64,000 bases of DNA, from positions 436,001 through 500,000 of the forward strand of contig MU057781.1 in assembly GCA_013265495.1 (NCBI GenBank), in the 5' to 3' direction. Position numbers and translations under genes: made by a program. Within the stretch, counting starts at the first letter, position 1. Each line of letters starts with the position of its first letter. The notes below the pieces were generated by a model, which saw nothing but the letters and a program-made list of their open reading frames with translations, searched no databases and had not been told where the DNA came from. The stretch is from Vicugna vicugna (Eukaryota). Of the stretch, positions 2,135 through 43,462 are shown in pieces.

Positions 2135-2872
2135 GGTGGAGATGCTCAGCACTGTTTGCCATGAGGGAAACGCAAACTAAAACCACAGTGAGATACTCCA
2201 CACCCACTAGAATGGCGCCAACATAAAAGCTGGAGGACACGAAATGCTGGCGAGAACGGGGGGCCACTGGCGCTCTCCCATGTGGCCAGGGAAGTGCAGA
2301 ATGATGTGGCGACTGTGGAAAATCGCTCGCCAGGTGCAATGTTAAACACACACTCACCCTGCAGCCCAGCAACCCCATTCCTGCTATTTACCTAAAAGAA
2401 GTGAAACGTGTATCTCCACGCAGACACACTCGTGGGTCTTCATAAAAGCTTTCTTCGTGATGATTCAAAACCAGAATCAACCTGAATTCTCATCAGCTGA
2501 TGAATGGCCAAATAAACTGCGGTATATCCACACAGGGGAACAGTTCTCAACAATGGGAAAGAATGAGCTCCTGATACAGGAAACAACATGGATTTATCGC
2601 AAAAACATTAAGCTAAGGAGGAGAAGCCAGACACAAAAGACCACATACTGTGTGAGTCCGTTTACAAGAAAGTCTAAAAAAGGCAACATTCCAAGAGCTG
2701 GAGGGGTTGGCTGCAGAGGAGCACGAGGACCTCTGTGGGCGATGGAGCTGGTCGACGGCGTGCCTGTGGTCGTGGCTACATGACTGTACGGTCATCAGAA
2801 CCCACTGAAGTGTACACTGTAATTCAGTGAGTCTTATTCATGTGAATTTTACCATAATAAGGATGATTTAAA
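2135..2872 (+). mobile_element. Old L1 (L1M) ORF2 end and 3' UTR fragment
   Basis: Characteristic L1 motifs: gggaaacgcaaactaaaaccacagtgagatac, cccagcaaccccattcctg, gatgaatggccaaataaactgcggtatatccacac, gaagccagacacaaaagaccacatactgtgtga. Confidence 0.85.
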
Positions 2873-2877
2873 GACAC

Positions 2878-3180
2878 TGGTCACACCACTCCCAGCTGAA
2901 AACCCCATGGCAGTCCCCCATCGCCCAGGACACAAAGTCAAGGTCCTGCGTGACCTGGTCTCTGACTGTCTCCCCAACCTCATCTCAAGATGCTACCTCC
3001 CCTTCCTCATCCCCACATCCCAAACCCTCTACTGTAGCTGTCGTAAACCCTCTCAAGTCCTCACAGCCATGCCGTGTCCCACTTCGGGGTCCCCGTCTAC
3101 CATCGCCCTTGCCTGGATTCCCACCTCTCGTCTTCCATCCGCCAGTAAAGTGTCCTGTTCTCCAAGACCCAGGCAGAAGC
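2878..3180 (+). mobile_element. L2 fragment (3' region)
   Basis: tcacaccactcccagctgaaaaccccatggcagtccccc...gtgacctggtctctgactgtctccccaacctcatctc resembles the L2 3' consensus. Confidence 0.6.
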
Positions 3181-3374
3181 ACTTTCAAAGACCACTAAGT
3201 CGGGTTTATGCAGGGAATGAGACTTGGGTGCCTGGTCACTCCCATGCCGGTCAGCACTGTCCTGGAGATCCTGCCAAGGCAGTTATGTTCATTTTTTAAA
3301 ATTAGGTACACAGAGTGCAAAAAGTAAGATCATTATTAGCAGATCTTTATAACTGCTTACAAAAAAGATAAAAG

Positions 3375-4510
3375 AAAATGTATAATTAGAACTAATAAGA
3401 AGGTTCAACGAGGCCACTGCTTACAAGCTCAGCACGCAAAGAGGGAAGCAGCGTTGTGCATCAGTGACAGCTAATTAGGAAATGCGATTTATAAAAGATC
3501 CATTCACAGGAGCAAAAAGTGGGGCGGGGGGAAGTAACTGTAACTGCACTTCCCTAAAACCAAATCTAACATAAGATGCCGCAGGTATTTGTGGAGAAAG
3601 TGATAACAAACTGTTACTCCCGGACAGGTTTTCAAAAACATGAATGAGTAGCGAGACATACAACGTTGATGAATGGTGATGAGTGGAAACTAAACTTCAT
3701 AAATATGTCGGTTCTCTCCAAATTAGTCTGTGAACTCAAAGCAATTCCAATCAAAATCCCCAAGGACTTTTTTTTGGTGGAACTAAAATTTATACAAAAG
3801 CATAAAGTTCCAAGAATAGACAAGACAATTCTAGGCGGGAGAGCACTGAGGAAGGGCGGTCGTTACGAGACGATCAAGGCCTGTCACGGAGCGGCAGCAA
3901 TTCCGGCGCGTGTGGCAGAGGCGCGGCGCGGGCCGCGCGGTCAGCAGAGCAGCGGAGACGCTCAGAAAGGGCCCCCAGGCCTGCGCACGCACAGCGCGCG
4001 TCCGAGCGCGAGCGCGGAGGGAGCGCTTCAGGTCCAGACGGAAGGAGGACCCCTCGGCGCGCAGCCGGCAGCTCCGGAAGGCTGGACTCTCCGTTCTGGA
4101 AGGATCGTAAGCGCCTCCCTCTCGACCAGGACGCGTGCGAATCCCAAACGTCCCGGAGGCCTGACAGCGAAAAGCAAGTCAGGAAAAAGGCACAAGGCTG
4201 TTCTAACGAATCGCAGACAAAGAAAGGAGGAACGCCCGAACCAGGAAGGAAAAGACCCCTTAAAGTGAACAAAAGAAAACGAAAAACTTCGTCCAGCAGG
4301 AGACGCCCTCGCGGAGCAGCGCAACGGGGCGCAGACGAGGCGGAAAGCACCTGCGGGTCGCACGCCGCGCGCGCACCCGGTGTCCAGGACGCGCGATGCT
4401 TTCCTCCGAAGCAACGAGCAAAAGGAAGAAGAGCCCACGGGGCCGAAAGCGCAGAGGCGCTGATGCCTCCGTTCGTGCGGACGCGACTGAACATAACGGG
4501 AAACGCCGAC
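3375..4510 (+). mobile_element. Old L1 ORF2 fragment; distal part (3830-4510) strongly GC-converted
   Basis: ORF 3666..4268 begins MSVLSKLVCELKAIPIKIPKDFFLVELKFIQKHKVPRIDKTIL (L1 ORF2-like). Colinear L1 anchors continue through the GC-rich part at 3873, 3940, 4276 and 4383. Confidence 0.8.
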
Positions 4511-4960
4511 CAAGCCCGCGTCCCCCCGCCCCGGGCTGCCGTCCCAGGAGCTCTGACCCCCGGCCACGGAGGCCACCTGCCGAGGCTGCCGAGCCGGGCT
4601 TCGCGCCTGTGTCTGGCCACGCTCGCGGGGCCCGCGGCCCGCAGGGCAGGGGCAGAGACGTGGGACGGGCCTGGGGGGCAGGAGACTCCGGCGCTGGCGC
4701 GGCCGGCCCCGCGCTCTGTCTGGGCGGGTCCCCGGGGGACTTCCAGGGACCGGGGTCGCCGCCGCCGGGCGGGGCAGGTGCGGCAGCAGCTGGCGGGCAG
4801 AGCCCGGGGCCGGCCCCCCACGGGGAAGCCCCCGGCCCTCCGCGCCCCGGGGCCGGCGCATGGGCTGGGAAGCTCCGAGCCGGCCCGCACACGCAGACGG
4901 GCTCCGAGCAGCGGCAGCGGCAGCGTCGCCCCGAAGAGAAGTGGATGCTTGGAGGGAACA
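3830..4960. promoter_or_regulatory. CpG island (candidate promoter/enhancer), left half L1-derived
   Basis: Very high GC with dense CpG (cgcgcg runs) and a GC box (gggcgggg near 4767). Sharp transition to AT-rich sequence on both sides. Confidence 0.8.
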
Positions 4961-5507
4961 GGGGGGCCGATCTACCGTCTAATTTCTCTTATTAGGGAGA
5001 AATCAGTTACTTCAATTACACGTTTTAATCACTTTTATCTTCCTCCTGAAAAGAGCAATAATGGGAAAGAGTTGAAGAACACGGCCACTCGTGCGGACTT
5101 CAAAACAGACCCAAACTGCTCTCCAGCGGTTAAGCGCCTGTGCCAGGTAAGGAGGCTCCACTCACGGCTGCGTGTGCAGCAGTGTCGGGGCGGGGGCCAC
5201 GTCTCGGGGGAGGGGGCGATGTTTTCACAGAGGGCTTCGATTTTATCTAAAATGCCCTATTGCTTGGGGAAAAGTCACAGTCTGAAAGAGCACGCAATGT
5301 CAACCTTTGGAGCTAAAGGTACATTGACATTTCCTGTTTCATCTGTAATTTTCCGTAAGTTTTCTTATTTTAAAAATGAAAAAAAAGGTACTGAATTATT
5401 GACAGATGAAATGATGTGACATCTCAAATTTGCTTTAAAATACTGCAGGGAAAAAATGGAGCAGAAACAGATGAAACGCCGTGGGCAAAACGCGAGTTCT
5501 CTGTTTC

Positions 5508-5770
5508 GACAAAACAAACCTCCCGAGAACCTAGTGGCCGAGAGGCCAGCATTTACTGTCCGGGGGTGTCTGCGAGTCAGGAATTCAGGAGCGGCTCAGT
5601 GGGTGTTTCTGGCTCAGGTCCTCCTGGCCGGGCTGCGTCCTCTGCAGGCTGGCGACCTCAGCTCCTGCCTCGGGGGCCTCCGCACAGGCCAGCAGCCGGG
5701 CCCCCGAGTGCCCGGGGACCCGAGAGAGAGGGCGAGGGGGAAGCTGCAGAGGTTCCCTTCCCTCGACCCC
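5508..5770 (-). mobile_element. MLT1-type (ERVL-MaLR) LTR fragment
   Basis: aacaaacctcccgagaacctagtggc...gtcaggaattcaggagcggctcagtgggtgtttctggctcagg resembles an older MLT1 LTR in antisense. Confidence 0.55.
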
Positions 5771-6184
5771 AAAAGGAGGAAGACATAGAGGCCTGGAAAG
5801 GAGGCTCCAATTCCAGCCAGACCCCGAGATTCCAGCCCCAGGGGCTGAGACCCCACTGTTTCTAGCAGACACCTGGCTTCCCGGGCCCTTCGTGAGCCAG
5901 GACTTGAACTCTGAACGATCTCTTTATCCTGGAGGGACTTCACTGGTTTATTCTAATCAGCTAGTTTGAGAGAGGAAAAAAAAAAAACACGATGCAAAAT
6001 CACTATTCTTGCAAAATGGGAGCAGGAACAAGCTCTACAAAGTTAGAAATTAAATGACTGTTCTCTTTCTGAGACATATGTTAAGCTAGCAGCTCGTTAA
6101 TCTTCTTTCTGCTCTAAGCCTGTAACAACCTGGCTACTAAATCTTTAAGTCTCTGAATCATGACTCTTTCATAATCCCCAGCGC

Positions 6185-6816
6185 CAGGGCCGGGAGAGAT
6201 GCTCATCTTTCTTCCAAGAGAAGCAGGTGCAGATGAGGCAGAACGGAGCATGGCTGGACATGGCGGCTTTGACGGGGGTCCAGGGACAGGTGTGCCACAG
6301 GGGCCGTGGCCTGAGGCCAGAGTGGGACCTCGGGCCAGCACCAGCACCTGACCTGGTGAACAGAAACGGTAAAAGAGAAAAAGGCACAGAGGAGGGTTTA
6401 ATACAATACTGACTCTCTCATTTGAGGGCTACCAGGTGGTAAAAGCCCATTGGAGGAAGCCCTGCGGACTCGGGAACGCCCGCAGAAGAAAACAGAAGCC
6501 CTCCCCGCCAGAGCTGCCAGAGGAGGCGGGTGGCGGCGCACTGGCCTGTGCACCGGGTTGAACTCTGGACCGCAGGCTGAAGCCGGGCCCACCTGGTACT
6601 GTCTGATCTTCCTTGACGTATCAGAGCGCACTGCCACGGCGGAACCCTGCCTCGCCGCTCTCAGCGCCGCCTCTGACACTGAGGAGCCACACGCCTGTCC
6701 CCCTCCCCCGGGGACATCCTGACAGGGGCCTTCTGCTGTTTCTGCTTCCTGTTCCCTGCAGCACCCGCTCCGTGCCTTTTCCCGTTATCCCACAGCTGAT
6801 GAATAAATGCTGAAAA
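6185..6816 (+). pseudogene. Possible decayed processed pseudogene, parent not identified
   Basis: Non-repeat stretch with protein-like frames broken by stops and frameshifts (FFQEKQVQMRQNGAWLDM...EWDLGP..PDLVNRNGKREKGTEEGLIQY*LSH / FEGYQVVK / PLEEALR). It ends in AATAAA (6802) and a short A-run. No TSD found. Confidence 0.3.
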
Positions 6817-6829
6817 GTAGGACTGCTGC

Positions 6830-7265
6830 TCCAGGCGTGATCCACGCCTCCACCTGGTCTCTGCACCCAGCTGTCCCGCGTGGAGTCTCAGCCTGGCTTT
6901 CCCACCCCCAGACCGAGGCAGCTGGTCTACCAATAACCACAACACCGCTTACCAGCTCCAGTATTCAGCATTTAAATGGCTTCCACTTTTCAACGCTATC
7001 AATAGTCTGTAAATTATCATCCTATGCAAAAATTACGGCTAACGGTTTCTGTGGGGCCCCCTCTGGAGGCGAACCTGCTGGCCTGGAGGGCCTGCCCTTT
7101 TCGAAGCTCTCGATGCTGAGAGAGGACCCCTGGAGGCTGCGCTGCGCCTGGGCCCGTCCCGCCCACCCTGGGCTCCAGTCTTTGTCATTGTCACCCTTGC
7201 AGGTGAACCTTGCTGTTGCTTTTTGTTCATTTATTTGCCTGGTTGCTAATGAAGTCGGCGTTTGA
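6830..7265 (-). mobile_element. Highly decayed L1 (L1ME-like) fragment
   Basis: cttgctgttgctttttgttcatttatttgcctggttgctaatgaagtc and catttaaatggcttccacttttc resemble antisense L1 3' sequence. Confidence 0.4.
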
Positions 7266-21914: not shown

Positions 21915-23148
21915 ATTTGTTATTGTTTAAGTTCAGTAAAATGCACTCCATTTGGGGTACGCTTCTGTAGGTTTCGACAAAGGCACAATATCGTGTAACC
22001 AGCAGCACGGCACTCAGAACTGTTCCATCACCCCTCCTCCGCCAGAATCACCCTACCCTGCCTTTTCCATCCCAGCCGCCGGCAAGCGCTCACCCATTCT
22101 TGTCCCTACATTTCACCTTTTCTGAACAGGATGTGAGGGAATCATGCACCGCGCAGCCTCGTGGGGCCTGGCTTCCCGCACTTAGAGTGACGCCTCGGAG
22201 AGCCCCTCCTGGCGCGTCCCCGCGGCCCACACCGTCCTCCACGGAGGGGCCTCCGCTGTCCCGGGGCTCCGCCCTTGCCTGTCCCTCACCCGCTGGTGGA
22301 GGCCTGTGCTGTGCCCAGTTTGGAGCGGTTACTGTTCAAGTGACTTTCCACATTCGCAGAGAGGCACGTGCATTAACAAAGTTGTGTTTCCGTTGGGTAA
22401 ACAGCTGGTCGCGAGACAGATGGATTGTGTGGGAAGCGTGTTTAACTGCAGAGGGAACCTCCACGCTGCTTTCCAAGGGCGTCCTCCTTACCGTCTCGCG
22501 TCCCACCGCAGCTGCCGAGAGTTCCCGGTGCTCCGCGTGCTCGCCAGCCCTTGGTGTCGTCTGTTGCGGCGTGTCTGCCTGCTGGCCTCGCCGGCAGGCG
22601 TGGATAAACACTCCAGTGTGGCTTTGATTGGCATTTCCCTAATGGCTGATGACGCCGATCGTTTTTCCGCGTCCCCTTTTGGCCGTCTGTGTGTCGCTTT
22701 GCTGTGGTATCTGTTCAATGTCTCGCCCGTTTTTTAAGCTGGGTTTTTGTTTTCCTATTGTTGGATTTAGTGCTCCTTGTGTGTTCTGAATACCTCCCCT
22801 TTCACAACTATGTGGTTTGCACTTTTCTTTTCATTCTCTGGGCAATCTATTTTGAAGAGCAAAATTCTTAATTTTGATGAAATTCAATTTCTTAATTTGC
22901 TTTTAGCATCATATCTAAAACCCTTTCCTGACCTAAGTTTACAAATTCTCCCTTTCTTCCTGGGGAAGCCCTGCGCCTTAAACTTCACATTTAGGGTCTA
23001 GGATGCATTTGAGTTAATTTTTGTTTGTGGTGCAAAAACGGAGTTGGGATTCTGGTTTGTTTTTTTTTTCTTTTTTACAACTGAATAACCAGTCATTCAG
23101 CACCATTGACAGAAATACTCTCCTTTCTGTATTCATACCTTTTGCACT
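21915..23148 (-). mobile_element. Old L1M 3' UTR/ORF2-end fragment with a GC-converted centre
   Basis: ttcagtaaaatgcactc...tttcgacaaa; gtggctttgattggcatttccctaatggctgatgac; tttgaagagcaaaattcttaattttgatgaa; catttgagttaatttttgt. Confidence 0.85.
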
Positions 23149-31219: not shown

Positions 31220-32602
31220 CTAGCCAAAGCAAAAAGAAAAGAAAAACAAATAAAAAGGCATAGAATAGAAAGGAAGCAAAGAGCTGTCCCTATGCACAGG
31301 TAACATGATTGTCTATGTAGAATATGTGAAGGAATCTATGAAAGTTCTGGAACCAATGCATGAGTTATGAAGCTCCTCACAGAATATAAGGTCAACCTAC
31401 AAAAATCAACTCTTTTTCTATATACTAGCAATGAATAATTAGAACATCAAAATTTTTAAGTAGTGTCATTTACCATGGCTCTAAAAAATGGAATATGTAA
31501 GTATAAATCTAACAAAATAGGTTAAAGATCTACAGGCTAAAAACTATCAAATGCTGATGTAAGAAGTCAAAGACGTCATAAAGAAATGGGAAGACATACC
31601 ATGTTCATGGATTGGAACACTCAATTTACTTAAGATGTTATTTCTCCCCAAAATCATTTATAACTTTAACACAATCCCAAACAAATTCACAGCAGGAATT
31701 TTTATAGACACACAGATGCTTATTTTAATGTTTATGTAGAGAGACAAAGGAAGCATGATGGACAATATATTTTTGAAAAGAACAAAGCTGACAGACAGGT
31801 TGCTAGATTTTTACATACTCTAAACTGCAGTGATTAAGACAGTGTAATACTGGTGACGTGACAGACACACAGATCAATGAAACAGAACAGGGAGACCAGA
31901 AATAGACTCACACAGATATAGTCGATTGCGCTTTGCCAAAGGTGCAAAGACACCTCAGTAGAGAAACTGATATCTTTTCAAGAAATGTTTCTGGAACAAT
32001 TGGGCATCATATACAAAAAAAAAAAGGACCTCAAGCCTATACCTTACACATTCTACAAAAATTAATTCATAATAGACCATCAGCTTGAATGTAATATGAA
32101 AAACTATAAGACTCTAAAAAGAAAACATAGGAGAAAATCTAACCCTTCGGGCCAGGTGAAAAAGTCTTAAAAGGGACAGTAAAAGCATGATCCACAGGAA
32201 AACCTTGATACATTAGACTCCATCAAAATTAAGAATATCCACTCTTTGAAAGACACCATGAGGGGAACAAAAAGGCAAGTCACAGACTGATAGGAAATGT
32301 TTAAAATCCTGTACCTATTCACCTATAATGAAAAAGACTATGAAAAGGAATGTATGTGTGTGCGTGTATGGCTGAAACATGATGCTGTGCACCAGAAATG
32401 GACACAACGTTGTCAGCTGACTAGACTTCGATAAAAAAGAGAGACAGCAAAATCGATCAATCGATCACATATCTGATAAAGGGCTTGCAGCCAGAATATA
32501 TAAATGACTGTCTAAACCATATGAAATCTAACAACCCAGCTTTTGCTAATGACAAAATTTGAACATACACTTTGCCTAAAAAGAAGTATGGGTGGAAACA
32601 AG
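31220..32602 (+). mobile_element. Old L1M ORF2 fragment (AT-rich, many stops), interrupted by a younger L1 tail
   Basis: aaatgggaagacataccatgttcatggattggaa (KWEDIPCSWIG); attaagacagtgtaatactgg; gaaaacataggagaaaatct; ccagaatatataaa. Confidence 0.92.
32309..32450 (+). mobile_element. Young lineage-specific L1 3' tail nested in the old L1
   Basis: tataatgaaaaagactatgaaaaggaa...gctgtgcaccagaaatggacacaacgttgtcagctgactagacttcgataaaaaa. It is flanked by aaaatc on both sides, and the host L1 resumes at acatatctgataaagg. Confidence 0.75.
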
Positions 32603-40500: not shown

Positions 40501-42339
40501 CCACCCCTCCCCTATTCCTCTGCAGCCCTCTCCCCCAGAGAGCTGCCCACCGGAGACCCCCAAGGAGCCCAGCCAGCTCCCGAGAGCCGCACTGCCATCT
40601 CCAGGTGCCCTGAGGCCACCTGGGGGGACGGGAAAGAATTTCAGACCCTCCGGGCAGCTCAAAAGCGGCTCCCCGATAAGTGGTCCAAGAGGCTTGTGCG
40701 TCTGAGATGGTTCAGAAAGGCCAGACCACAGAGGAAAACAAATGCTTGACTTTAAACACTCAGTTTCTAGGAAAGAGCAGCCATTTTTCTTGGAAGCATT
40801 AGTACTGCCTGACCCCTTGAAACAGAAGCAGAGAGAACTCGGTTCAGGAAGAGGCAGCTGCAGGCCACACGCCCGGCCCACAAGGGCGCTGCTAAAGGAA
40901 AACCACGGATTTCATCCCAGTGAAGCGCCCTTGCCCGCAGGGCGCCTGCCACAGCACAGCCCCTCAAGCGGGGAGGGGCTGCCCTCTGCAGATCGCCCCT
41001 TGTCCCCTGGCCTGCGGGCTGCTGGCCTGGTCCCGAGGCCCAGGAGGCCTGGAGGCAGGGGCCGAGCATCCAGGCCGGGCCCAGCTGGAGCCGCCCTCCT
41101 GGCCCAAGAGCCTCTCCATCAGGGGGCTCCCCACCCAGGACAGCTCGGACTCACGCCCACCCACTGCCCCAGTGAGAAGAGCTGCTCAGCCCAGCTCCAC
41201 TGGGTCCCACCGGGGGCCCTGACATGTCCTGCTGTGACCCCCCTTTCTGCCCTGGGTGCAGCGGCCCTGCCCTCGACCACAGCTAAACAGCCTGTTCCCC
41301 GAGCAGCTGCAAAGACAAGGAGTGGCACCTCCAGTGCTGGGACCGAGGGAGGAAGACGGCGGGGAAGGGGGGACGTATCAAAAGTCTGGAAAATGTTCCT
41401 GATCTTACCCAGAGCAACCCCACTCCCGAGACTTTGCCCTGAAGCGCTGATCGGGTGGGGGCTCGGATTCCTCTTCAGACAAGGGCAGGACGGCCACTCT
41501 ATCCAATAACCCTGCTGAAACGACAGAAGAATTTTTTAATCTACACGCACAAGCTCAAAGCCAGCCGACAAGATCTCCAAAGGGAGACGGCGGAGTTCTG
41601 TGGGGGCCACGGGTGGCTGGGCGAAGCGGCAGAGCCTTGCCCCTGCTTAAGGTCAGGGGGCTGTCAGGGGGCTGTCAGGGGCCAAGATGGGGCGATCACA
41701 GACCTAGGAACTGGAGCCCAACCCCTTGAAAGTGGAGGTTTGCTCTGTCCAACCGCAGACCCTGCACTGGCCCATGCAGCAGGGGACGGGGTGCCTTTCC
41801 AGGGTGCACCGGCCACGGAGGGTCTGGCCTCCGGGTCCCTGAATGCGGGCAAGGGGGTGACACGCTGGCCTGACGTGGGCGTCCGGCAGGGTTCTTGCCC
41901 TGAGCTGTGAGGCGCACAGACCCTGCCCCCAGAGCACTGTGTGAGGCTTGCACCCCGAGGCAGGAGGCTGAGGGAGCTGACGGCCCGTGAGAAAGGCCCC
42001 AGACCCTGGTACGTGGGGGTCCCGCCACAAGCCAGCCCATCACCCCTGCTGTCCAGGGAGCCTGTCCCTCAGCAAGGCCTCCTCAGGGACCCCCCTGGTC
42101 CCTTGCTACTTGCCTCACCCTGTAATATGGATGGACCTCCAAAGACCAGCACGTACCTGAGAAAATGTCTCTTAAATTAAAAGAAGTGGGGGGTGGGGGC
42201 AGAGAAAATACAGGGCGCTGAAGGAGACTTCCCACAAATAGGACTAACCCTGATGCTGATGACAAACAGAAGCCCGCCTGCGAGAAGCACGAAGGGCCCT
42301 CTGGGGAGAGGCGGGGCGCGAGGGGTGGGCGTCTGCTGC

Positions 42340-43462
42340 CCTGCAGAGTCACCACAACCAGAACACCTGCACCTCGGCGCCCAGAAGGCCCCTCCCGCCG
42401 GCGTTCCCCACGGCCTCCCCCCAAACCCAGGCCGCGGCACCGCTGGTCTGTCTCGGCTCCTCTGGGTTACCTTCTCCTGAGCGTCATGTGAACAGAATCA
42501 CAGCGCCTTTCACCCGGCGCCCCTCACTCGGGCGACTGCCTGGGCTCCATCCACGGCGTTGCTGGCTCTAGCCTGCCCCCTCCCGCCGACTCACAGTCCA
42601 CCCTCCGGACGGCCCAGGCGGCTCGTCCGCTGGCCAGCTGGAGGGCATCTGGGCTGACCCTTGCTTCGGACAGCGATGAGTAAGACACTCCAAGAAGGAA
42701 TACACGTGTGTGCATGTGTGACATGGTGCTGAGATGAGAACTTGACACGTTGTGACTGTACTTCAGTAAAAATTTTTTTAGTTTTAAAAGCTAAGAAAAA
42801 AAGACCACTCTAGCTGATCACGGACCGGTTAAGTGAGCTTGACTCCTTGCTTCTCTTGAGTGTTTCTCTAGGAGCAGGATGACTGTGTTTTGTTGTAAAT
42901 GCGTGTTTAACATCTTACAAGGCAACGCCACACAAGTCTTCAGAAGGGGCTGTGCTGTCGCAATCCCCGCCAGCGGTGAAGGAGGGTTCCCGCGGCCCCA
43001 CGCTCCCGCCCGCACCTGGTGTCGTGGGCGTCTTCTGTGTGCTTGCTTTCAGCTGTTCTGATAGCAGTGTGTCCTTGTGGCTGTAATTTGCATTTCCCTA
43101 ATTTTGCTCATGAAGTTGAGCATCTTTTCATGTACTTACTTGCCATCTATGTTCATTCTTTAGCAAAGCACCTTCTGCCCATTTTTCAATCACATGGTTT
43201 GCTTTCTTGTTATTGAGTTTGGGGACTTAGTTATGTATTCTGAACACAAGCCTTCTTCAATTACATGATTTGCAAGGATTTTTCCCCCAGTTTGTGGCTT
43301 GCTTTTTCCTTTTCTTAACAGCATCTTTCACAGAGAAGTTTTTTTTTATTGGTTTTTCCTTCTGTGGTTTGTAATTTTGACATCCCACCTAAGAAATTTT
43401 TACCAAACCCAAGGTTATAAAGATTTTCTCCTGTGTTTTCAGCTGGAAAGTTCTTGGTTATT
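42340..43462 (-). mobile_element. Old L1M 3' UTR/ORF2-end fragment
   Basis: ttgtggctgtaatttgcatttccctaa...gaagttgagcatcttttcatgtacttacttgccatctatg; ccaaacccaaggttataaagattttctcctgtgttttc. Confidence 0.85.
42691..42800 (+). mobile_element. Short young L1 3' tail nested in the old L1
   Basis: aagaaggaatacacgtgtgtgcatgtgtgac...cttgacacgttgtgactgtacttcagtaaaaa plus an A-rich tail. Imperfect TSD aagacactc (42682) / aagaccactc (42801). Confidence 0.65.

What the first reader, a model, noticed from the sequence alone, without database searches (positions are those of the whole stretch)
3830..4510. A LINE-1 ORF2 fossil rewritten into a CpG island by directional A/T->G/C change
Seen: the AT-rich L1 ORF2 fragment starting near 3375 does not stop at the CpG island edge; it continues colinearly inside it. 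Anchor 1: 3873 atcaaggcctgtcacggagcggcagcaattccggcgcgtgtggcagaggc versus the antisense L1 at ~580-640 (ttcaagacttactatacagccacagc..taatcaagacagtgtggtgttggc). Anchor 2: 3939 ggtcagcagagcagcggagacgctcagaaa versus 31872 gatcaatgaaacagaacagggagaccagaaa. Anchor 3: 4276 aaaacgaaaaacttcgtccagcaggagacgcc versus 32224 caaaattaagaatatccactctttgaaagacacc. Anchor 4: 4384 ccaggacgcgcga versus 32491 ccagaatatataa (TATATA -> CGCGCG). Most differences are weak->strong and create CpGs, the opposite of normal methylated-repeat decay. Established: gBGC at recombination hotspots fixes weak->strong alleles, and unmethylated DNA escapes CpG decay. Inference: a long-lived hotspot tied to the adjoining island has spread the island into the transposon, building new regulatory DNA from an L1 coding region.
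Basis: partly seen in the sequence, partly recalled or inferred. Interest (0 to 1): 0.8.

Follow-up and report, generated by a model that had tools for sequence, protein, structure and literature searches.

The report
L1 fossil overwritten into CpG island
An ancient, AT-rich LINE-1 fragment runs on for about 600 bases inside a CpG island, where over half of its A/T bases have become G/C; this is a clear single-locus example of a process already described genome-wide, so it is not a new kind of thing.

Summary
An L1 ORF2 fragment starts near 3226. Standard nhmmer follows it to 3901, which is 70 nt inside the island (E 1e-27). Beyond that, blastn, nhmmer and protein searches find nothing. A test on the pre-specified colinear diagonal of an L1 profile built from the same genome does find it. 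The diagonal ranks first of 626 offsets. 120-nt slices rank 1/97 for 3901-4020 and 4101-4420. Purine/pyrimidine match is 0.74-0.78 against 0.52 on about 2000 other diagonals. Signal is absent at 4001-4100 and beyond about 4425, so the GC 0.8 island core is of unknown origin.

At the island edge the substitution pattern switches within 70 nt. W->S rises from 11/76 to 21/42 and S->W falls from 14/38 to 1/18. Overall W->S is 0.55 per site against 0.20 in six control L1 fragments. The change is strand-symmetric, with transitions and transversions raised equally.

This fits GC-biased gene conversion in a hypomethylated patch, but recombination, methylation and lineage polarity could not be tested. 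A regulatory role is not shown. The window holds 24 CpG-island-like stretches, and other GC-rich patches also lie in L1. I file it as a new member of a known kind, of moderate interest.

The parts
3226..3830 (+). AT-rich, conventionally recognisable part of an ancient L1 ORF2 fragment (C-terminal half of ORF2, after the RT domain)
   Evidence: nhmmer with own L1 profile: window 3253-3901 = profile columns 2-618, E 1.4e-27. The 5' profile hits 3226-3440, E 5e-10. phmmer to human ORF2p residues 809-865 at 3687-3845. 30 other genomic L1 copies match window 3673-3860.
3831..4425 (+). L1 ORF2-derived part of the CpG island, heavily W->S substituted (profile columns about 548-1147). Strongest pieces are 3831-3975, 4097-4186 and 4276-4425. 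There is no signal at about 4001-4100.
   Evidence: Diagonal scan: rank 1 of 626 offsets. Slices rank 1/97 and 1/83-86 with a second profile. 31.0-bit local alignment against 0/200 shuffles. Ungapped R/Y match 0.74-0.78 against 0.52; 0 of about 2000 other diagonals reach it. W->S 129/234, S->W 10/94.
4426..4950 (.). Island core, GC 0.70-0.83, with no detectable L1 ancestry; origin unknown
   Evidence: Composition. No colinear or other L1 signal above shuffles or reverse-complement controls.
3761..5320 (.). Whole CpG-island call by a relaxed 200-nt scan (GC >= 0.55, o/e >= 0.65): 1560 nt, GC 0.64, o/e 1.0. It is the largest and most CpG-rich of 24 such stretches in the window.
4089..4642 (.). 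Stretch covered by two contigs from an RNA library of a close relative (93-95% alike)
   Evidence: records 4 and 5 of run X2, depth 3.4-3.6. Transcription is not proven, because DNA can be present in such libraries.
4946..5129 (.). Non-L1 stretch covered by RNA-library contigs of two runs (96-97% alike), followed by CAG|GT at 5144-5148; possible non-coding first exon
   Evidence: records 1 and 6; sequence. No joints were seen, so the exon status is inference.
2141..2851 (+). Separate L1 fragment (profile columns 1231-1967), not colinear with the target. Its GC-rich upstream flank served as a negative control.
   Evidence: E 3e-82; flank slices 1301-2120 rank 7-77 of 97-98

Best explanation
An ancient L1, 5'-truncated within ORF2, inserted with its sense strand on +, starting near 3226. 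Its first 600 nt decayed like an ordinary methylated repeat. From about 3831 to at least 4425 the same element lies inside a germline-hypomethylated CpG island.

In that stretch two things happened. CpG and other S->W loss was suppressed. W->S changes were fixed about 2.7 times as often as in other L1 fragments, by GC-biased gene conversion at a promoter-type (PRDM9-independent) recombination hotspot confined to the unmethylated patch. Together these turned AT-rich coding sequence into CpG-island sequence.

Shown: the homology, the colinearity, the direction, size and symmetry of the substitution shift, and its step-like edge. Inferred: hypomethylation (from CpG o/e of about 1 or more), recombination and gBGC as the fixing force, and any promoter activity.
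For: Homology and colinearity.

Step at the island edge on one element, the same under three scoring models: 3701-3830 has W->S 11/76 and S->W 14/38; 3831-3900 has 21/42 and 1/18 (Fisher p 7e-5 and 0.02).

Whole spans on the global path with the s=0 model: W->S 191/344 against 69/318 (p 2e-19), and S->W 25/149 against 46/125 (p 2e-4).

Against six control L1 fragments of the same window: W->S 129/234 against 581/2881, p 4e-29.

Signs of a fixation bias rather than a new mutational signature:
- Transitions make up 90/129 of W->S changes in the island and 406/581 in controls, OR 0.99.
- Both W->S transversions are raised (A>C 0.20 per A, T>G 0.29 per T).
- There is no strand asymmetry: A>G 0.40 per A against T>C 0.37 per T.

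Regional setting: window GC is 0.56 with 24 CpG-island-like stretches. Control L1s have u/(u+v) of 0.38-0.60, and other GC-rich patches lie in L1.

Literature:
- PRDM9-independent hotspots at CpG islands show gBGC signatures in most of 52 boreoeutherians and track hypomethylation (PMC11161765, abstract).
- gBGC and non-methylation jointly shape detected CGIs in dog (PMC4350167, abstract and introduction passages).
Against: There is no direct evidence of recombination, methylation state or allele-frequency skew at this locus, and no orthologues to polarise changes.

W->S just outside the edge (3701-3830) is the lowest of any bin (0.14). There is no flank gradient of the kind conversion tracts spreading from a hotspot might leave.

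S->W in the island is not significantly below the six controls (10/94 against 237/1289, p 0.07). It is lower only against the same element's flank.

The ancestral states come from a majority consensus of decayed copies of possibly another subfamily. That consensus lacks CpGs, so up to 13 of 51 island CpGs (consensus CA or TG) may be retained rather than new.

The island counts come from a path found with a W->S-tolerant model that has a built-in transition weight of 0.7. Ungapped counts give a transition share of 0.63.

Slice 4001-4120 shows no L1 signal. The L1's last roughly 1000 nt and poly(A) were not found.
Confidence: 0.6

Rival explanations
1. Hypomethylation plus selection or local mutation bias, without gBGC. 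The L1 part fell inside a protected promoter domain. CpGs stopped decaying, and GC/CpG-raising changes were favoured because they strengthen the island (CpG-binding factors, GC-rich motifs), or arose from TSS-linked hypermutation.
For: The switch at about 3830 is step-like, within 70 nt, as expected of a chromatin or methylation boundary, with no raised W->S just outside it. CpG o/e reaches 1.35-1.39 at 4201-4500, above typical island values. RNA-library contigs of a relative cover 4089-4642. TSS-linked mutation biases are reported to shape composition together with gBGC (PMC13712754, abstract).
Against: Loss of CpG decay alone cannot raise W->S 2.7-fold. The W->S spectrum keeps the control ratio of transitions to transversions and is strand-symmetric, which does not suggest a transcription-linked or novel mutational process. 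Similar GC-rich patches sit in other L1 fragments of the window with no sign of a promoter.
Confidence: 0.2
2. Purely regional gBGC. The whole region is a high-recombination, GC-rising isochore, and this is only its most extreme patch. There is no hotspot tied to an adjoining older island.
For: Window GC is 0.56 with 24 CpG-island-like stretches in 64 kb. Control L1 fragments already have u/(u+v) up to 0.60. A 780-nt CpG-rich stretch (21961-22740) lies inside another L1, and 42626-42507 (GC 0.72) is colinear with a third.
Against: The same element has u/(u+v) 0.38 on one side of position 3830 and 0.84 on the other. W->S triples within 70 nt. A regional force does not make such an edge.
Confidence: 0.1
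3. The L1 ends at about 3901. The similarity further in is chance between two purine- and A-rich sequences.
For: blastn, nhmmer (E <= 100) and phmmer find nothing beyond 3901 or 3845. Single-copy comparisons do not beat reverse-complement controls. Slice 4001-4120 has no signal. Shuffle nulls alone can mislead here: at 4941-5420 the forward strand scores 32.0 and the reverse-complement control 30.0.
Against: The diagonal was fixed in advance by the nhmmer alignment. It ranks first of 626 offsets under both models. Four separate slices rank 1/97, and a second profile reproduces this. Model-free R/Y match is 0.74-0.78, with 0 of about 2000 other diagonals reaching it. The GC-rich flank of another L1 gives no such signal.
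Confidence: 0.05

Closest known systems
gBGC-generated or gBGC-enlarged CpG islands at PRDM9-independent (promoter-type) hotspots. Sources: dog, PMC4350167; orphan CGIs overlapping phastBias tracts, PMC11170920; 52 boreoeutherians, PMC11161765. The 'BGC islands' of Cohen et al. 2011, Cell 145:773, are recalled; only the reference entry was seen.
   Same: A CpG-rich, presumably unmethylated patch with W->S excess and lowered S->W. It sits in a GC-rich region dense in CGI-like stretches.
   Different: Here the ancestral state is known site by site, because the substrate is a transposon ORF. The edge can be placed to within 70 nt on a single element. Recombination itself was not measured here.
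Compositional drift of ancestral repeats toward the local GC equilibrium (use of old L1/Alu copies as neutral substrates; recalled from Duret & Arndt 2008 and Webster et al. 2005, not read here)
   Same: An L1 fossil is used as a neutral ruler, and W->S exceeds S->W in a GC-rich setting.
   Different: The magnitude differs: 55% of W sites changed, GC reaches 0.78 and CpG o/e 1.4, so that standard repeat detection fails. There is a step within one copy rather than a regional trend.
Transposon-derived CpG islands and promoters (retrotransposon-borne germline DMR islands, PMC3217256, search listing and abstract start only; TE-derived young TSSs, PMC5932608, passages)
   Same: Island sequence that descends from a mobile element.
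   Different: In those cases the element brings CpG-rich or promoter sequence with it. Here an AT-rich coding part with no promoter became CpG-rich by point substitution after insertion.

Membership tests
LINE-1 (ORF2-derived sequence) | Significant similarity to L1 ORF2 protein or DNA models | tested here: met
   3687-3845 matches human ORF2p residues 809-865, E 0.002. 3253-3901 matches the L1 profile, E 1.4e-27. Pfam RVT_1 is not expected, because the fragment lies after the RT domain (0 families in the six frames).
LINE-1 (ORF2-derived sequence) | Colinear continuation of the same element through 3902-4425 | tested here: met
   Rank 1 of 626 diagonals. Slices rank 1/97, except 4001-4120. 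A second profile agrees. R/Y match 0.74-0.78. Not met by standard nhmmer or blastn.
LINE-1 (ORF2-derived sequence) | 3' end with poly(A) and target-site duplication | tested here: not met
   No L1 signal at 4426-5420 above controls. The 3' roughly 1000 nt is deleted or erased. Target-site duplications were not sought.
CpG island | Length >= 200 nt, GC >= 0.5, CpG o/e >= 0.6 (sequence criteria, recalled from Gardiner-Garden and Frommer) | tested here: met
   3801-5000: GC 0.52-0.83, o/e 0.78-1.39. One merged call of 1560 nt, GC 0.64, o/e 1.0.
CpG island | Unmethylated in the germline | not testable with these tools
   Inferred only, from CpG o/e of about 1 or more over about 1.1 kb.
gBGC tract or hotspot | W->S excess over S->W relative to neutral flanks | tested here: met
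   u/(u+v) is 0.84 in the island, 0.38 in the same L1 outside it, and 0.38-0.60 in six controls. Fisher tests.
gBGC tract or hotspot | Strand symmetry, with all W->S classes raised alike (a fixation bias, not a mutational signature) | tested here: met
   A>G 0.40 against T>C 0.37. Transition share 90/129 against 406/581. Caveat: the scoring model had a transition weight of 0.7; ungapped counts give 0.63.
gBGC tract or hotspot | Coincides with a recombination hotspot; derived W->S alleles at raised frequency; substitutions polarised by outgroups | not testable with these tools
   No orthologous genomes are held.
Promoter or regulatory element | Transcription initiates at or near the island | tested here: inconclusive
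   Contigs of two RNA-library runs from a close relative cover 4089-4642, 4946-5129 and 5372-6500, and none cover 3000-4088. Depth is 3-7, there are no joints, and strand is not given. Two raw-read runs laid 0 reads.

The most novel reading that the evidence does not exclude
The whole island, core included, was born on the L1 after insertion. A feed-forward loop would drive this: unmethylated CpGs lead to H3K4me3 and default double-strand breaks, these lead to gBGC, and gBGC makes more CpGs. On this reading the island now acts as the promoter of the transcript seen at 4946-5129, making it a promoter made from transposon coding sequence by a non-adaptive force. More generally, a sizeable share of 'repeat-free' CpG islands would hide transposon ancestry that RepeatMasker-type searches cannot see.
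Probability: 0.12. Interest if true: 0.6.

Novelty: new member of a known kind. Interest (0 to 1): 0.35.

Why it matters
The locus works as a natural experiment. One element of known ancestral sequence crosses a CpG-island edge, so the island's substitution regime can be read site by site against a built-in control. The regime shows W->S up about 2.7-fold, S->W down, strand symmetry and an unchanged transition share.

It shows that at least 600 nt of a 1.1-kb island is younger than an L1 insertion. It also shows that ordinary repeat annotation stops at the island edge, because the W->S change defeats standard scoring.

If the same W->S-tolerant, diagonal-anchored test were run genome-wide, it could measure how much CpG-island DNA is overwritten transposon. 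That bears on whether islands are built mainly by non-adaptive forces.

Tried and rejected
- blastn (word size 7) of 3300-4600 against the rest of the window gave 14 weak hits, best E 0.006, none to L1.
- BLAST of 3830-4510 against the own genome found 1 match, itself.
- Standard nhmmer with two profiles found nothing beyond 3861 or 3901 at E <= 10-100, and nothing in 4900-5600 at E <= 1000.
- Pfam on six read-through frames of 3300-4600 gave 0 families. phmmer to solved ORF2p stops at 3845.
- The frame of copy B that I tried found no ORF2p, only 3 chance hits.
- Pairwise W->S-tolerant alignment to three single L1 copies of the window scored 16.7-21.3, against 17.3-23.1 for reverse-complement controls. 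It has no power.
- Search for the L1 3' remainder at 4426-5420 found none. The high s=0.4 score at 4941-5420 (32.0) is matched by the reverse-complement control (30.0), so I rejected it as a G-run artefact.
- The A-run at 5372-5386 lies where an undeleted L1 would end, but it has no profile support and I dropped it.
- Gene context: 0 Pfam families in 27 + 34 long open frames, no Rfam family in 2500-7000, and only three tiny tandem repeats.
- Raw-read RNA runs X12 and X13 laid 0 reads, so they are no test.
- Earlier-findings look-ups returned nothing.
- Literature searches found the general process. In those listings and the passages I read, I found no report of an L1 ORF2 fragment followed through a CpG island. 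Supplements were not opened.

Full report
**What is there.**
The window is G000:C818:436001-500000, from a 2.03-Gb genome. Positions 3801-5000 form a strong CpG island. In 200-nt windows GC is 0.52-0.83 and CpG o/e is 0.78-1.39. The preceding 600 nt have GC 0.35-0.46 and o/e 0.28-0.65. A relaxed scan merges 3761-5320 into one call (GC 0.64, o/e 1.0). This is the largest of 24 CpG-island-like stretches in a window whose overall GC is 0.56.

**The L1.**
- Read through with X at stops, 3687-3845 aligns to human L1 ORF2p residues 809-865, E 0.0018-0.0039 over five solved sequences.
- BLAST of 3300-3860 against the own genome finds 30 other places, all matching window 3673-3860.
- I collected 48 L1-bearing loci from the own genome and added two L1 copies of the window. 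The loci that contain the target were left out. From these I built profile HMMs.
- The 2174-column profile (69 aligned pieces) hits window 3253-3901 at columns 2-618, E 1.4e-27.
- A profile of the region 5' of that puts the start of the fragment at about 3226.
- A second L1 piece at 2141-2851 (columns 1231-1967) is a different, non-colinear fragment.

**Does the L1 go on inside the island?**
Standard tools say no:
- blastn, BLAST against the genome (only itself), nhmmer with either profile and phmmer all stop at 3845-3901.

The hypothesis, however, fixes in advance where the homology must lie: on the diagonal profile column = window position - 3283. I tested that diagonal directly.
1. A banded global alignment of 3902-4510 was scored at 626 offsets on both strands of the profile. 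The predicted offset is the best. With a W->S-tolerant profile it scores 3.4, against a null mean of -81.0, sd 23.9 and maximum -33.9. With the plain profile it scores -112.3, against -206.1, 31.1 and -149.3.
2. In 120-nt slices, the predicted diagonal (+-20) ranks 1/97 against other diagonals and the reverse complement for every slice from 3501 to 4020 under the plain model. It ranks 1/97 for 3901-4020, 4101-4220, 4201-4320 and 4301-4420 under the tolerant model. Slice 4001-4120 shows nothing (ranks 81 and 44 of 98), and no slice beyond 4401 does. The profile seeded on another copy reproduces this, with ranks of 1/83-86.
3. The best local alignment of 3902-4600 anywhere on the 2174 columns is 4276-4425 against columns 998-1147. 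It scores 31.0 bits and lies 5 nt off the predicted diagonal. None of 200 shuffles reach it (null 17.6 +- 2.1, maximum 27.9). Two further top segments, 4097-4186 and 3902-3975, lie within 10 nt of the diagonal. Two others, 4595-4738 and 4439-4561, do not.
4. Without any model, the ungapped purine/pyrimidine match is 0.74 (4097-4186) and 0.78 (4276-4425), against 0.51-0.52 (sd 0.04-0.05, maximum 0.66-0.68) on about 2000 other diagonals. Exact identity is 0.47 and 0.43, against 0.24-0.25. Zero other diagonals reach these values. For 3831-3975, which has indels, 7-8 of 1968 diagonals do. The two segment diagonals were picked by the alignment within +-10 of the predicted one, which costs a modest correction.

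Controls:
- The GC-rich flank of the other L1 fragment (1301-2120) gives ranks of 7-77 of 97-98.
- The 32 testable flank slices of five further fragments are mostly unremarkable.

**Limits.**
The signal ends at about 4425 (column 1147). The island core at 4426-4950 (GC 0.70-0.83) and the AT-richer 4941-5420 show no L1 signal. A high tolerant-model score at 4941-5420 is matched by the reverse-complement control and is an artefact. An intact L1 would have run on about 1000 nt further, to roughly 5400. Because 4950-5400 is not GC-rich and would still be recognisable, at least that part of the L1 has been deleted or replaced. Whether the core is erased L1 or older DNA cannot be told.

**Substitution pattern.**
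Ancestral states were taken from profile columns with a majority letter at 0.5 or more.
- The three island segments (328 sites) show W->S 129/234 (0.55) and S->W 10/94 (0.11), giving u/(u+v) 0.84.
- The AT-rich part of the same element shows 35/154 (0.23) and 25/68 (0.37), giving 0.38.
- Six other L1 fragments of the window show W->S 0.14-0.28, S->W 0.14-0.23, and u/(u+v) 0.38-0.60.
- A single global path over 3253-4425 gives the same picture under three scoring models and places the switch within 70 nt. At 3701-3830, W->S is 11/76 and S->W 14/38. At 3831-3900 they are 21/42 and 1/18 (Fisher p 7e-5 and 0.02).
- Transitions are 90/129 of island W->S changes and 406/581 of control ones, OR 0.99.
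- A>G per A is 0.40 and T>C per T is 0.37. A>C is 0.20 and T>G is 0.29.
- Of 51 CpGs in the segments, the consensus dinucleotide is CA in 11, AA in 9, TA in 7 and TG in 2.

Caveats:
- The consensus comes from decayed copies and so lacks CpGs. Up to 13 of the CpGs may be retained rather than made.
- Any alignment of a GC-rich sequence to an AT-rich one shows W->S. The counts therefore matter only because homology was shown independently.
- The tolerant model carries a transition weight of 0.7. Ungapped counts give a transition share of 0.63.
- S->W in the island is not significantly below the six controls (p 0.07).

**Mechanism.**
Given the homology, a net directional W->S rewriting of L1 coding sequence is a direct consequence.

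Loss of CpG decay in unmethylated DNA explains the low S->W and the survival of new CpGs. It does not explain a 2.7-fold rise in W->S. A rise that is equal for transitions and transversions, and symmetric between strands, points to a fixation bias rather than a new mutational process, and that is what gBGC predicts. As a rough inference, a 2.7- to 3.6-fold rise corresponds to a population-scaled B of about 2.5-3.5.

The literature makes this the default reading:
- PRDM9-independent hotspots at CpG islands leave gBGC signatures in most of 52 boreoeutherian mammals and evolve with hypomethylation (PMC11161765, abstract).
- In dog, non-methylation attracts recombination, and gBGC then shapes the detected islands (PMC4350167, abstract and introduction passages).
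- Composition near human TSSs is attributed to mutation bias plus gBGC (PMC13712754, abstract).

Two observations argue against a simple hotspot picture. The edge is step-like, and W->S just outside it is the lowest of all bins. This requires breaks and short conversion tracts confined to the unmethylated patch, or else favours a chromatin-bounded mutational or selective process. I put gBGC in a hypomethylated patch at 0.6. The rivals are hypomethylation with selection or mutation bias at 0.2, a purely regional process at 0.1, and chance at 0.05.

**Function.**
- No Pfam domain was found in 61 long open frames of the window.
- No Rfam family was found.
- Contigs from two RNA-library runs of a close relative cover 4089-4642, 4946-5129 and 5372-6500, but not 3000-4088. 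Depth is 3-7, and there are no joints.
- The L1-derived piece differs by 28 letters and 7 gaps in 402 nt. The other seven pieces are 3-5% different.
- This hints at transcription and at faster evolution of the converted part. One low-depth contig proves neither.

**Novelty.**
The process is in print. The particular case was not seen in searches or the passages read: an AT-rich ORF2 fragment traced through an island, with a 70-nt edge and an internal control. Supplements were not opened. I file it as a new member of a known kind, with interest 0.35. Its main use is as a worked example, and as a method hint that island DNA can hide transposon ancestry from standard annotation.

Noticed in passing
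window 21937-23147 (-), especially 22165-22284 and 21961-22740: A second L1 fragment (profile columns 726-1597 and 1704-1955) carries a CpG-island-like stretch (780 nt, GC 0.59, o/e 0.82). The 120-nt slice between its two recognisable pieces has GC 0.75 and still ranks 1/66 on the L1 diagonal (z 3.9 and 7.0).
   Followed up: partly
window 42507-42626: A GC 0.72, o/e 0.83 patch lies 240 nt downstream of the L1 fragment 43475-42867 (-). It ranks 1/66 on that fragment's diagonal under both models (z 4.4 and 4.7). It may be a third overwritten L1 piece, inside the CGI-like stretch 42261-42720.
   Followed up: partly
whole window: GC is 0.56, with 24 CpG-island-like stretches of 300 nt or more in 64 kb. 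None of 61 long open frames has a Pfam domain. It looks like a gene-poor but very GC- and CpG-rich region.
   Followed up: partly
window 4946-5148: An AT-richer stretch just after the island is covered by RNA-library contigs of two runs from a close relative (3% different) and is followed by CAG|GTAAGG at 5144-5152. It may be a first exon of a non-coding transcript.
   Followed up: partly
window 4089-4491: The relative's contig differs from the window by 28 letters and 7 gaps in 402 nt. That is about twice the divergence of six of the seven other pieces (2.9-4.1%); 4475-4642 is at 4.8%. The converted L1 part may still be evolving fast.
   Followed up: no
window 32306-32463: L1 copy B is interrupted by a roughly 158-nt insertion. 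This insertion has 86-90% identical copies elsewhere in the genome (query 1022-1153), so it is probably a younger SINE.
   Followed up: no
window 2901-3200: There is strong C over G skew (GC skew -0.44) in the 300 nt just upstream of the L1 start. It is unexplained.
   Followed up: no
window 5372-5386: An A-run sits almost exactly where an undeleted copy of this L1 would end (about 5400), but no profile signal supports it as the L1 tail.
   Followed up: partly
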